64,000 bases of DNA from the NCBI RefSeq assembly GCF_000026545.1, contig NC_011601.1. One strand, given 5' to 3'. This document shows, in pieces, positions 55,201 to 58,200 of this stretch (the first letter of the stretch is position 1; every line of letters begins with the position of its first letter). The DNA comes from Escherichia coli O127:H6 str. E2348/69 (GTDB lineage Bacteria; Pseudomonadota; Gammaproteobacteria; Enterobacterales; Enterobacteriaceae). A program made the position numbers.

Positions 55201-58200
55201 ATCCAGCCGGACCTGATCTACACCTCGGAAGAAGCCGATGCGCCACAGTATATGGAACATCTGGGGATCGAAACGGTGCTGGTCGATCCGAAACGCACCT
55301 TTATGAGTATCAGCGGTGCGCAGATCCGCGAAAACCCGTTCCGCTACTGGGAATATATTCCCACCGAAGTGAAGCCGTTCTTTGTGCGTACCGTGGCGAT
55401 CCTTGGCGGCGAGTCGAGCGGTAAATCCACCCTGGTAAACAAACTTGCTAATATCTTCAACACTACCAGTGCATGGGAATATGGTCGCGATTATGTCTTT
55501 TCACACCTTGGCGGTGATGAGATCGCATTGCAGTATTCCGACTACGATAAAATCGCGCTGGGACACGCTCAATACATTGATTTTGCAGTGAAATATGCCA
55601 ATAAAGTGGCGTTTATCGACACTGATTTTGTCACTACCCAGGCGTTCTGCAAAAAGTACGAAGGGCGGGAGCATCCGTTCGTGCAGGCGCTGATCGATGA
55701 ATACCGTTTCGATCTGGTGATCCTGCTGGAGAACAACACGCCGTGGGTGGCGGATGGTTTACGCAGCCTCGGCAGTTCGGTGGATCGCAAAGAGTTCCAG
55801 AACTTGCTGGTGGAGATGCTGGAAGAGAACAATATCGAATTTGTGCGGGTTGAAGAAGACGATTATGACAGCCGTTTCCTGCGCTGCGTGGAGCTGGTGC
55901 GGGAGATGATGGGGGAGCAAAGATAATCATCTTTATAAGATGTTGAGTGGGATTACTGATTCAAAAGTGTACTTAGTACTCCATTTTGGTGTACAATGTA
56001 CCTGCCAGGGAGGGGTAATGGGTAAGGCGATAATATTTATAGAGACGCCAATGTTTACGCGTCAGATCAAGCAGATTGCAACCGATGATGAATTAAAGGA
56101 ATTACAAAAAGAACTCATCGGAACTCCCGATAAAGGTGATCTCATTCAGCAGACTGGTGGATTGCGTAAAGTCCGAATGGCTGCGGGTTCACAGGGAAAA
56201 AGTGGCAGTGTCAGAATAATTTACTTTCTGGCGACGGAAGAGATTATTTATTTGATTATGGCCTATCCGAAAAATGCCAAAGATAGTCTGACAGATACGG
56301 AAAAAGCTCAACTAAAGAAGTTGACGAAACTGCTCAAAGGCGAGATATAAAATGAGTTTTTTTGATGAGTTGAAAACCTCTCTGGAAGAGGCTGTCGAGA
56401 TTAAACAAGGTTTAAAAGAACCTGCACGGGTGACCCGCTACGAAATTGCGGATGTTAAAGCTATTCGTGAGCAACTCAACGTTTCGCAAAGTGAGATGGC
56501 AAAAGCTCTGGGAACCAGTGTGGATACCATTAAAAGCTGGGAATCGAAGCGAAGAAATCCTACGGGATTGGCTGCAAAAGTACTTGCCACAATTAAAGAA
56601 AATCCTGCCTTTTTCCGGGAACTTGCCTCCCATTAATCATTTAACTATTACCGGATGCGATGCTGGCGCGCCGCATCCGGCATTTTACGCATTACTTCGC
56701 AATACGCTTGTACTTGATACGCTTCGGCTCCAGCGCGTCTGCGCCCAGCGTGCGTTTCTTGTACTCTTCGTACTCGGTAAAGTTACCTTCAAAGAACTCA
56801 ACTTTACCTTCATCCTGGTAATCCAGAATGTGTGTGGCGATACGGTCGAGGAACCAACGGTCGTGCGAGATAACCATCGCGCAGCCTGGGAACTCCAGCA
56901 GGGCGTTTTCCAGCGCACGCAGGGTTTCGATATCCAGGTCGTTGGTCGGTTCGTCGAGCAGCAGCATGTTGCCGCCAACCTGCAGCAGCTTCGCCAGATG
57001 CAGACGACCACGCTCACCACCGGAGAGTTCGCCAACGCGTTTACCCTGATCAACCCCTTTAAAGTTAAAGCGGCCAACGTAGGCGCGGCTTGGCATCTCG
57101 GTGTTACCGATCTTCATGATATCCAGCCCGCCGGAAACTTCTTCCCAAACGGTTTTGCTGTTATCCATTGAGTCACGGAACTGATCGACAGATGCCAGTT
57201 TCACCGTTTCACCTAAAGTGATGGTGCCGCTGTCTGGCTGTTCCTGACCAGAGATCATACGGAACAGGGTTGATTTACCCGCGCCGTTCGGACCGATGAT
57301 CCCGACGATCGCCCCTTTCGGGATCGAGAAGCTCAGATCATCAATCAGCAGGCGATCGCCGTAAGATTTACGCAGGTTGCTGACTTCCAGCACTTTATCG
57401 CCCAGACGCGGTCCAGGCGGAATAAACAGTTCGTTGGTTTCGTTACGTTTCTGATATTCGGTGCTGTTCAGCTCTTCAAAGCGCGCCAGACGTGCTTTAC
57501 CTTTCGACTGACGGCCTTTAGTTCCCTGACGTACCCACTCCAGCTCTTTCTCGATCGACTTACGACGCGCTGCTTCTTGTGAAGCTTCCTGCGCCAGACG
57601 CTGATCTTTCTGCTCTAGCCAGGAGGAGTAGTTACCTTCCCACGGAATACCTTCACCGCGGTCAAGTTCGAGGATCCAGCCTGCAACGTTATCGAGGAAG
57701 TAACGGTCGTGGGTAATCGCCACCACGGTACCCTCGAAGTCGTGCAGGAAGCGTTCCAGCCACGCTACGGATTCGGCATCCAGGTGGTTGGTCGGTTCGT
57801 CGAGCAGCAGCATGTCTGGTTTTTCCAGCAGCAGGCGGCACAACGCCACGCGACGACGCTCACCACCGGAGAGGTTAGCGATTTTCGCGTCCCAGTCCGG
57901 CAGACGCAGCGCATCCGCCGCACGCTCCAGCTGAACGTTCAGGTTGTGACCGTCGTGAGCCTGAATGATCTCTTCCAGACGGCCTTGTTCAGCGGCCAGC
58001 TTGTCAAAATCGGCATCCGGATCGGCGTACAGCGCATACACTTCATCCAGGCGTTTCAGGGCGTTAACCACTTCAGAAACCGCTTCTTCAATGGACTCAC
58101 GCACGGTGTGTTCCGGGTTCAGCTGCGGTTCCTGCGGCAGATAACCAATCTTGATGTCTGGCTGCGGACGCGCTTCACCTTCGATGTCTTTATCAATGCC

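What the first reader, a model, noticed from the sequence alone, without database searches (positions are those of the whole stretch)
55930..56690. HigB-2/HigA-2-like toxin-antitoxin cassette inserted between nadR and ettA
Two small co-oriented genes sit where I expect nadR and ettA to be nearly adjacent. The first resembles a RelE-superfamily HigB-2 toxin (GDLIQQTGGLRKVRMAAGSQGKSGSVRIIYF…YLIMAYPKNAKDSLT). The second starts 1 nt after its stop and resembles an XRE-HTH antitoxin (…SQSEMAKALGTSVDTIKSWESKRRNPTGLAAKVLATIKENP). Toxin-first order is typical of HigBA. An extended -10-like TGGTGTACAAT and GTAC-containing palindromes lie just upstream.
Basis: partly seen in the sequence, partly recalled or inferred. 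Interest (0 to 1): 0.55.

Follow-up and report, generated by a model that had tools for sequence, protein, structure and literature searches.

The report
Known HigBA-2-type toxin-antitoxin pair
Between nadR and ettA of E. coli E2348/69 sits an intact, already annotated toxin-antitoxin gene pair of the Vibrio cholerae HigB-2/HigA-2 type; it is ordinary, and most E. coli, K-12 included, keep only a broken remnant of it.

Summary
The window matches E. coli E2348/69 at 100%. Two co-oriented genes lie between nadR and ettA: a 110-aa toxin (56018-56350) and a 94-aa antitoxin (56352-56636), 1 nt apart.

- **Toxin:** matches Pfam PF06296 and solved V. cholerae HigB-2 (E 8e-17). All four residues whose mutation cripples HigB-2 are kept. 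A model superposes on HigB-2 (TM 0.86).
- **Antitoxin:** full-length match to NCBIfam NadS. Its best solved relative is HigA-2.
- **Already known:** RefSeq annotates the pair as a type II RelE/ParE-family toxin plus nadS, and a 2020 paper lists it as a nadR-ettA toxin-antitoxin islet. I found no experimental test of the E. coli pair.

Refinements:
- **Mobile module:** low G+C (42% against 51-55%). In 57 loci of other species it is never next to nadR or ettA. Nearest relatives are on 5-7 kb plasmids.
- **Not a recent insertion:** E. fergusonii has it at the same site. 672 of 5,426 complete E. coli genomes have it whole, and about 70% carry a K-12-type deletion remnant.
- **Upstream GTAC palindromes:** they fit a conserved GGTGTAC-N3-GTACACC motif (42 of 46 related loci), a likely operator.
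- **"Extended -10":** only an ordinary -10-like TACAAT.

Interest is low.

The parts
55927..56017 (+). Upstream control region between the nadR stop and the toxin start. It contains the candidate promoter and both candidate operators. G+C is 39.6%.
   Evidence: Sequence; G+C. No terminator-like site was found on the + strand between nadR and the toxin gene, so read-through from nadR is also possible.
55966..55982 (.). Distal candidate operator AGTGTAC-TTA-GTACTCC, an imperfect copy of the family palindrome GGTGTAC-N3-GTACACC. It overlaps the weak -35-like TGTACT.
   Evidence: Direct repeat of 13 nt with 22-nt spacing. Motif found in 42 of 46 related upstream regions, against 5 copies in 312,685 nt elsewhere in the same loci. 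Only two copies in the window.
55988..56004 (.). Proximal candidate operator GGTGTAC-AAT-GTACCTG. It overlaps the -10-like hexamer TACAAT (55992-55997).
   Evidence: This arrangement parallels the V. cholerae HigA2 operator, which extends over the -10 element (PMC11006873).
56008..56015 (+). Ribosome-binding site GGGAGGGG upstream of the toxin ATG.
   Evidence: Sequence.
56018..56350 (+). Toxin gene, 110 aa, of the HigB-2 / Pfam PF06296 'RelE' family. RefSeq WP_000513550.1, 'type II toxin-antitoxin system RelE/ParE family toxin'.
   Evidence: Pfam PF06296 E 5.9e-10. V. cholerae HigB-2 structures E 7.7e-17. R53/R66/Y83/K85 correspond to VcHigB2 R51/R64/Y82/K84 and are invariant in 46 homologues. 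Foldseek TM 0.86 to 5jaa_D. RefSeq annotation.
56352..56636 (+). Antitoxin gene nadS, 94 aa. It has a predicted toxin-binding N-terminal segment (helix 1-18, strand 26-32) and a C-terminal XRE helix-turn-helix domain. RefSeq WP_000007436.1.
   Evidence: NCBIfam NF041265 NadS, 182.6 bits against a cut-off of 60. Pfam HTH_3 E 6e-10. VcHigA-2 is the best solved relative, E 2e-6. AlphaFold2 alone versus fused to the toxin. A homologue follows the toxin gene in 56 of 57 related loci.
56651..56680 (.). REP-like G+C-rich hairpin between the convergent nadS and ettA genes. It is a possible bidirectional transcript end and is not part of the mobile module proper.
   Evidence: RNA fold -20.9 kcal/mol, z = -3.75. 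It aligns with the REP next to ettA in K-12 and in 'empty' alleles.

Best explanation
This is a chromosomal type II toxin-antitoxin operon of the HigBA-2 class: a Pfam PF06296 toxin with a YiaG/NadS-like HTH antitoxin.

Mechanism inferred from the V. cholerae homologue:
- The 110-aa toxin enters the ribosomal A site and cleaves translating mRNA, using R53, R66, Y83 and K85.
- The 94-aa antitoxin neutralises it. Its N-terminal segment, disordered on its own, folds into a helix plus a beta-strand on the toxin surface.
- The antitoxin's C-terminal HTH domain dimerises and binds GGTGTAC-N3-GTACACC palindromes. In E. coli there are two copies, overlapping the -35-like and -10-like elements, so the operon represses itself.
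- The 1-nt gap between the genes couples their translation.
- Toxin would be freed when the labile antitoxin is degraded.

History: the module was acquired horizontally from the pool carried by small enterobacterial plasmids. That happened before or around the E. coli / E. fergusonii split. It has since been lost or truncated in most E. coli lineages.

Shown here: homology, conserved catalytic residues, fold, gene pairing, conserved palindrome, distribution.
Inferred only: RNase activity, neutralisation, DNA binding, autoregulation.
For: - **Toxin family:** PF06296. HigB-2 structures E 7.7e-17 with 36-40% identity.
- **Catalytic residues:** the four residues whose alanine substitution lowers VcHigB2 activity 170- to 3000-fold (PMC5416850) align to R53/R66/Y83/K85. 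They are invariant in 46 homologues.
- **Fold:** AlphaFold2 of toxin-linker-antitoxin gives mean pLDDT 83.7. The top 11 Foldseek hits are HigB2 chains, followed by HigA2 chains.
- **Folding on binding:** antitoxin residues 1-32 have pLDDT 50-65 and no strand when modelled alone. Fused to the toxin they have pLDDT above 90, with helix 1-18 and strand 26-32. This matches the helix-plus-strand behaviour described for VcHigA2.
- **Pairing:** 56 of 57 related loci have the NadS homologue directly downstream. The gap is 1 nt in 27 intact pairs, and 15 others overlap by 1-4 nt.
- **Operator:** GTAC-N3-GTAC lies upstream in 42 of 46 loci although the surrounding sequence does not align, against 5 copies in 312,685 nt elsewhere.
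- **Purifying selection:** 6 nt differences but 1 aa difference in the toxin between E2348/69 and E. fergusonii.
- **Foreign origin:** G+C 41.8% against 51-55% in the flanks; third-position G+C 38-41% against 63.5% in nadR. Relatives at 80-82% identity are on 5-7 kb plasmids.
- **Experimental precedent in the family:** V. cholerae HigBA2 and A. baumannii plasmid HigBA2, where toxicity, RNase activity, complex formation and autorepression were shown (PMC5906591).
Against: - I found no experiment on the E. coli pair itself. Accession searches of the paper library returned nothing.
- Most E. coli lineages have lost the toxin, so it is dispensable and could be attenuated.
- Three of the four VcHigA2 base-contacting residues differ (D58, K61, S62 in place of R68, E71, N72). 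The half-site spacing also differs from the Vibrio operator (N3 against N5 with different half-sites). DNA recognition therefore cannot simply be transferred.
- The promoter is weak by consensus and was not called by the scan.
- The fused-chain AlphaFold2 model is a prediction, and an artificial linker may bias it.
Confidence: 0.85

Rival explanations
1. The pair is a decaying relic. The genes look intact, but the toxin is attenuated or inactive in E. coli, and the cassette persists only through neutral drift on its way to the K-12-type remnant.
For: - The toxin gene is present in only 672 of 5,426 complete genomes.
- About 70% of genomes carry a truncated remnant.
- Independent further decay is seen: lost ATG and a frameshift in O111:H8, a TTG start and a 10-nt deletion in strain 222, and pseudogene flags.
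- About 10 of 57 loci in other species also have a broken toxin with an intact antitoxin.
Against: - Both ORFs are full length.
- All four catalytic residues, the RBS and both operator copies are intact.
- The toxin differs at 1 of 110 residues from the E. fergusonii copy despite 6 nucleotide changes.
- All 672 copies are at least 95% identical over at least 80% of the query.
Confidence: 0.08
2. The molecular mechanism is as in the best explanation, but the selected role is anti-phage abortive infection or exclusion of HigBA-2-bearing plasmids, rather than addiction or stress response.
For: - RelE/ParE-superfamily toxins are discussed as defence toxins (PMC11980606).
- Both proteins match phage protein families of unknown function: phrog_5869 at E 8e-29 and phrog_2104 at E 7e-22.
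- Close relatives sit on small plasmids, so a chromosomal antitoxin could in principle neutralise plasmid toxins.
Against: - There is no significant PADLOC match for a defence system; only weak CARF and HTH hits.
- Only 6 distant matches (under 55% identity) turn up in 50,697 phage records.
- The flanking genes are housekeeping genes, not a defence island.
Confidence: 0.05
3. NadS is a regulator connected with nadR and NAD metabolism, as its name and position suggest, and the upstream ORF is an accessory protein rather than a toxin.
For: - The gene is named after its neighbour nadR.
- A transposon-reporter study lists nadS among small proteins 'co-conserved' with NAD+ biosynthesis (nadR) (PMC12350097).
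Against: - In 57 loci from other genera the NadS homologue is never next to nadR or ettA. It follows the PF06296 toxin in all 56 loci with enough downstream sequence.
- The K-12 'nadS' is a truncated copy that has lost the DNA-binding domain.
Confidence: 0.02

Closest known systems
Vibrio cholerae HigB-2/HigA-2 (superintegron TA; PDB 5JAA, 5JA8, 8A0X)
   Same: - Toxin-first operon.
- Toxin about 36-40% identical, with the same four active-site residues (R, R, Y, K) and the same fold (TM 0.77-0.86).
[quoted passage not shown]
- The antitoxin has an N-terminal neutralising segment and a C-terminal XRE HTH domain (TM 0.77-0.85 to the solved C-terminal domain).
- The operator is a GTAC-containing palindrome over the -10 region.

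   Different: - Only about 30% identity in the antitoxin.
- Three of the four base-contacting residues differ.
- The operator is GGTGTAC-N3-GTACACC, present twice in E. coli. Vibrio has a single TGTACGC-N5-GCGTACA.
- The location is a housekeeping intergenic region, not an integron cassette.
RelE/HigB-2-type modules on small (5-7 kb) plasmids of Enterobacterales (Yersinia ruckeri, Hafnia, Pectobacterium, Serratia, Shigella boydii, Klebsiella)
   Same: The toxin is 78-82% identical, and chromosomal relatives from the same genera have antitoxins 80-86% identical. Gene spacing and the operator motif are the same in related loci.
   Different: Those copies are plasmid-borne. This one is fixed in the chromosome between nadR and ettA.
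Acinetobacter baumannii plasmid pAB120 HigBA2
   Same: Same broad family: 272 Acinetobacter plasmid hits, with the under-60%-identity band dominating the 622 plasmid records. Toxicity, RNase activity, complex formation and autorepression with the toxin as co-repressor were shown experimentally (PMC5906591).
   Different: A more distant relative. It degrades free RNA in vitro, and its operator is not defined.
E. coli K-12 YiaG and the 'relE-yiaG' modules of Gerdes 2025 (PMC11980606)
   Same: The class is the same: a PF06296 toxin upstream of a YiaG-like HTH protein whose HTH resembles HigA2. The same locus was called parE-3/yiaG-2 (TA30) in AIEC NRG857c and CFT073 (PMC7232551).
   Different: NadS scores 47.7 bits against the YiaG model (PRK10072), whose cut-off is 110. 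It is therefore a paralogous family, not YiaG. There is no Pfam match to ParE (PF05016), so 'parE-3' is a misnomer.
Proteus vulgaris Rts1 HigB/HigA (the founding HigBA)
   Same: Toxin-first gene order, a RelE-superfamily ribosome-dependent RNase, and an HTH antitoxin.
   Different: A different Pfam family (PF05015/PF09907), with no match here. That toxin lacks the C-terminal helix, and its antitoxin is fully folded and does not cover the active site (PMC5416850).

Membership tests
HigB-2 / Pfam PF06296 ('RelE') toxin family | Significant match to the family profile | tested here: met
   PF06296 E 5.9e-10 over residues 13-106. The next hit is Gp49 PF05973 at E 0.0013. No hit to PF05016 (ParE) or PF05015/PF09907 (HigB).
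HigB-2 / Pfam PF06296 ('RelE') toxin family | Sequence and fold similarity to the solved founding member, VcHigB2 | tested here: met
   phmmer E 7.7e-17 over residues 6-102. The AlphaFold2 model against 5jaa_D gives TM 0.86 and rmsd 2.0 A, and the top 11 PDB hits are all HigB2.
HigB-2 / Pfam PF06296 ('RelE') toxin family | Active-site residues Arg51, Arg64, Tyr82, Lys84 (VcHigB2 numbering) | tested here: met
   They align to R53, R66, Y83, K85 and are invariant in 46 of 46 intact homologues.
HigB-2 / Pfam PF06296 ('RelE') toxin family | Ribosome-dependent cleavage of translating mRNA; toxicity when expressed alone | not testable with these tools
   Needs an expression assay and in vitro translation or primer extension.
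HigA-2 / NadS (YiaG-like) antitoxin family | Match to the curated family model above its cut-off | tested here: met
   NF041265 NadS: 182.6 bits against a cut-off of 60, covering 1-94 of 94.
HigA-2 / NadS (YiaG-like) antitoxin family | C-terminal XRE-type helix-turn-helix domain resembling HigA2 | tested here: met
   HTH_3 E 6.1e-10. VcHigA-2 is the best PDB sequence hit at E 2.2e-6. TM 0.77-0.85 and rmsd 1.0-1.5 A to the 5j9i C-terminal domain.
HigA-2 / NadS (YiaG-like) antitoxin family | N-terminal disordered segment that folds into a helix plus strand on the toxin and neutralises it | tested here: inconclusive
   Prediction only. Residues 1-32 have pLDDT 50-65 alone and above 90 with helix 1-18 and strand 26-32 when fused to the toxin. 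Binding was not measured.
HigA-2 / NadS (YiaG-like) antitoxin family | Palindromic operator overlapping the operon's promoter | tested here: met
   A conserved GGTGTAC-N3-GTACACC lies 24-78 nt upstream of the toxin start in 42 of 46 loci. E. coli has two copies, over the -35-like and -10-like elements. Protein binding was not tested.
Type II toxin-antitoxin module | Two small adjacent co-transcribed genes whose pairing is conserved in varying genomic contexts | tested here: met
   56 of 57 loci keep the pair, and none is next to nadR or ettA. Among 46 intact pairs the gap is 1 nt in 27 and the genes overlap by 1-4 nt in 15 others. Relatives are plasmid-borne.
YiaG (NCBIfam PRK10072 equivalog) | Score above the curated cut-off | tested here: not met
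   47.7 bits against a cut-off of 110. Related, but not YiaG.
ParE (gyrase-poisoning toxins, PF05016) | Match to the ParE profile | tested here: not met
   No PF05016 hit with E up to 10. The active site is of the RelE/HigB-2 type.

The most novel reading that the evidence does not exclude
The most novel reading concerns the remnant, not the intact cassette. In a K-12/O157-like subset of at most about 1,300 of 5,426 genomes, the remnant encodes a 55-aa 'NadS' that keeps the whole predicted toxin-neutralising segment (residues 1-38) and has lost the DNA-binding domain. A transposon-reporter screen reports it as expressed in K-12. It could be a retained mini-antitoxin that protects the cell from post-segregational killing by the common small HigBA-2 plasmids, whose toxins are about 80% identical (an anti-addiction function). 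A second, smaller novelty is that the NadS subfamily uses a GGTGTAC-N3-GTACACC operator, distinct from the Vibrio HigA2 operator.
Probability: 0.1. Interest if true: 0.4.

Novelty: already known. Interest (0 to 1): 0.15.

Why it matters
It matters little as a discovery. The locus is annotated in RefSeq, has been listed in the literature as a pathogen-associated TA islet, and belongs to a family with solved structures and a worked-out mechanism.

The useful by-products are these:
- The gene called nadS is a HigA-2-type antitoxin. The K-12 'nadS small protein' is a truncated pseudogene-like remnant of it. People interpreting small-protein screens should know this.
- The full cassette, not the K-12 spacer, is the older state at this site.
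- A testable operator consensus is now available for this antitoxin subfamily.
- The labels 'parE-3/yiaG-2' used in the literature do not pass family tests.

Tried and rejected
- **First toxin coordinates:** 56019-56347 were out of frame. Corrected to 56018-56347.
- **Consensus promoter scan:** it did not call the TACAAT promoter. It found only two promoter-like sites inside the toxin gene, no more than expected from shuffles. I do not propose an internal antitoxin promoter.
- **Inverted-repeat finder:** it returned no pairs in 55920-56030, because the arms are short. The palindrome emerged only from comparing 46 related upstream regions.
- **PADLOC:** no defence-system match.
- **Rfam:** nothing in 55000-57500.
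- **Phage records:** only 6 distant matches, so a prophage origin is rejected.
- **Weak Crn1/CARF hits to the toxin:** E 0.004 in NCBIfam, 0.14 in the PDB search, 0.0025 in PADLOC. All are far below cut-offs and I did not pursue them.
- **Literature by RefSeq accession:** nothing found.
- **Genome-collection scan:** it did not return E. fergusonii. That copy was found only through the protein-cluster look-up, so the 57 loci are not a complete census.
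Full report
**What is there.** The window is identical to E. coli E2348/69 over the 1.2 kb tested. The gene order is radA, nadR (both +), two small + strand genes, ettA (-), slt (+). The first small gene has a longest ORF from 55940 (136 aa). The ATG at 56018 follows a GGGAGGGG ribosome-binding site. It is the start RefSeq uses in E2348/69 (110 aa, WP_000513550.1). It is also the position at which all 46 intact homologues start. The second gene runs 56352-56636 (94 aa, nadS, WP_000007436.1) and begins 1 nt after the toxin stop. A G+C-rich REP-like hairpin (56651-56680, -20.9 kcal/mol, z = -3.75) separates it from the convergent ettA.

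**Family assignment of the toxin.**
- It matches Pfam PF06296 (E 5.9e-10) and no ParE or Proteus-HigB family.
- Against all solved structures the only real matches are V. cholerae HigB-2 chains (E 7.7e-17).
- Hadzi et al. showed that alanine substitution of Arg51, Arg64, Tyr82 and Lys84 lowers VcHigB2 activity 170- to 3000-fold (PMC5416850). In the HMMER alignment these correspond to R53, R66, Y83 and K85 of the E. coli protein. In a MAFFT alignment they are invariant in 46 of 46 intact homologues.

**Family assignment of the antitoxin.**
- It is a full-length match to NCBIfam NadS (182.6 bits, cut-off 60).
- It scores only 47.7 bits against YiaG (cut-off 110).
- It carries an HTH_3 domain, and its best solved relative is VcHigA-2.

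**Structure predictions.** I modelled a toxin-(G4S)5-antitoxin fusion using a paired alignment of 25 loci. The result was mean pLDDT 83.7 and pTM 0.76.
- Foldseek against the PDB returned HigB2 chains as the top 11 hits (TM to target 0.77-0.86). The best was the antitoxin-bound form 5jaa_D.
- HigA2 chains followed, with the C-terminal domain at TM 0.77-0.85 and rmsd 1.0-1.5 A.
- The antitoxin N-terminus is low-confidence when modelled alone (pLDDT 50-65, residues 26-31 below 50, no strand).
- In the fusion it becomes a confident helix (1-18) plus strand (26-32). This is the folding-on-binding behaviour described for VcHigA2.
- This is a prediction with an artificial linker, so I count it as supportive, not conclusive.

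**Conservation as a module.** A scan of one genome per species found 57 related loci, in Serratia, Enterobacter, Pantoea, Pectobacterium, Xenorhabdus, Photorhabdus, Yersinia, Halomonas/Vreelandella, Thioalkalivibrio and others.
- None is next to nadR or ettA. Every locus with enough downstream DNA (56 of 57) has a NadS homologue directly after the toxin gene; 54 of these are 68-86% identical and two distant ones about 32%.
- Of 46 intact pairs, 27 have the same 1-nt gap and 15 others overlap by 1-4 nt. About 10 loci have a broken toxin with an intact 94-aa antitoxin.
- In the plasmid collection the nearest relatives (78-82% identity) are on 4-7 kb plasmids of Yersinia ruckeri, Citrobacter, Pectobacterium, Hafnia, Serratia, Kluyvera, Shigella boydii, Enterobacter and Klebsiella. 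One of them is annotated 'Toxin HigB-2'.
- Phage records hold only six distant matches.
- The cassette has 41.8% G+C against 51-55% in the flanking genes. Third-position G+C is 38-41% against 63.5% in nadR.

This is a horizontally acquired addiction-type module.

**Candidate operator.** They are the only two copies in the 64-kb window, against 0.32 expected.
- The same motif lies within 120 nt upstream of the toxin start in 42 of 46 related loci: 48 sites in 5,520 nt, centred 24-78 nt from the start codon.
- Elsewhere in those loci there are 5 sites in 312,685 nt, and the surrounding sequence is not alignable.
- The extended consensus is the 17-bp palindrome GGTGTAC-WWT-GTACACY.
- The V. cholerae HigA2 operator is TGTACGC-N5-GCGTACA and extends over the -10 element (PMC11006873).
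- Three of the four base-contacting HigA2 residues (R68, E71, N72, R77) are replaced in NadS (D58, K61, S62, R67). The replacements are conserved in the subfamily.

The design is the same, but the specificity and half-site spacing differ. In E. coli the proximal palindrome contains TACAAT (55992-55997), and the distal one overlaps a weak -35-like TGTACT. The TG abuts the hexamer, so this is not a canonical extended -10, and the consensus scan did not call this promoter.

**Distribution and direction of change.**
- The toxin gene is present in 672 of 5,426 complete E. coli genomes, always chromosomal and at least 95% identical.
- K-12 has nadR TAA, then CCG, then the last ~30 nt of the toxin gene, the intact TAAAATG junction, the first ~115 nt of nadS, and then REP elements.
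- A K-12-type remnant covers at least 80% of the K-12 spacer query in 3,781 genomes (69.7%). Any trace is found in 4,617 genomes, and none in about 809.
- K-12, O111:H8 and strain 222 share the same left junction. This points to one old deletion followed by separate decay.
- That decay includes a lost ATG and a 1-nt deletion in O111:H8, a TTG start and a 10-nt deletion plus a four-gene island in strain 222, and RefSeq pseudogene flags in two further strains.
- E. fergusonii ATCC 35469 has the full cassette at the same site. Its toxin is 98.2% and its nadS 100% identical at the nucleotide level, while radA, nadR and slt are 95-96% identical.

So the cassette is old at this locus, or has been exchanged between the species by recombination. 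The K-12 spacer is derived from it. 'Inserted' is right about ultimate origin but wrong if read as a recent gain by E2348/69.

**Prior knowledge.**
- RefSeq annotates the pair as a type II RelE/ParE-family toxin and nadS.
- Public protein clusters name them 'addiction module toxin RelE' and 'YiaG / NadS family'.
- Bustamante and Vidal (PMC7232551) list it as TA30 'parE-3/yiaG-2' in the nadR-ettA region of AIEC NRG857c and CFT073. They noted its absence from K-12 and HS without noticing the remnant.
- Gerdes (PMC11980606) describes the relE-yiaG class and the naming confusion around PF06296.
- I found no experiment on the E. coli pair.

**Verdict.** This is a correctly read, intact member of a well-characterised toxin-antitoxin class, already annotated and catalogued. 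Interest is low. The most interesting loose end is the K-12-type remnant. Its 55-aa ORF is identical to the full antitoxin at 33 of the first 38 residues, which cover the predicted neutralising helix and strand, and it has lost the HTH domain. It is reported as expressed in K-12 (PMC12350097). In most lineages, however, it is visibly decaying.

Noticed in passing
L002:1728-1935 (E. coli K-12 DH1, nadR-ettA spacer); aligns to window 56321-56470: The K-12 gene 'nadS' (55 aa) is a truncated remnant of this antitoxin. It matches the full protein at 33 of the first 38 residues, which cover the predicted toxin-neutralising helix and strand, and has lost the HTH domain. The last ~30 nt of the deleted toxin gene sit just upstream. 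A 2025 transposon-reporter screen reported it as a newly evidenced expressed gene linked to nadR.
   Followed up: yes
L068:2601-3297 (E. fergusonii ATCC 35469, CU928158.2): The full cassette sits at the same nadR-ettA site in the sister species. nadS and the downstream spacer are 100% identical at the nucleotide level to E2348/69 (340 nt without a change), while the flanking nadR, radA and slt are 95-96% identical. The same holds for E. coli WP5-S18-ESBL-09 (L063). This suggests recombinational exchange or unusually strong constraint.
   Followed up: partly
window 55940-56017; L068:2601-2678: The long-ORF start (136 aa) is used for the toxin in the original E. fergusonii annotation. It would place the operator and RBS inside the coding region. 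Gerdes 2025 describes 'heterogeneous, disordered N-terminal extensions' of PF06296 toxins upstream of yiaG homologues. Some of these may be start-codon mis-calls of this kind.
   Followed up: partly
L004:3400-6375 (E. coli strain 222): A four-gene island (DUF1471 protein, SRPBCC protein, SDR oxidoreductase, aldo/keto reductase) lies directly after the nadS remnant, where ettA is expected. The nadR-ettA spacer therefore seems to be a recurrent site of gain and loss.
   Followed up: no
L049, L051, L053-L059, L061 (Halomonas/Vreelandella, Thioalkalivibrio, Xenorhabdus, Stutzerimonas and others): About 10 of 57 related loci have a truncated or disrupted toxin gene. Seven of them keep an intact 94-aa NadS homologue. 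This is the same toxin-first decay seen in E. coli.
   Followed up: partly
window 56018-56347 (toxin protein, residues 14-96): Three libraries give weak hits to CRISPR ring-nuclease / CARF models: NCBIfam Crn1 E 0.004, PDB SSO2081 E 0.14, PADLOC CARF E 0.0025. The fold search also touches Cami1, a ribosome-bound protein. All are far below cut-offs and may be chance.
   Followed up: no
L002:1880-2035 against window 56470-56690: In K-12, O111:H8 and 'empty' alleles, two REP elements occupy the place of the 3' half of nadS. E2348/69 has only the single REP-like hairpin next to ettA.
   Followed up: partly
NZ_CP134663.1 (hit H71, plasmid collection): A 4.9-Mb E. coli record is filed in the plasmid collection and carries the cassette at 99% identity. 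It is evidently a chromosome mislabelled as a plasmid.
   Followed up: no
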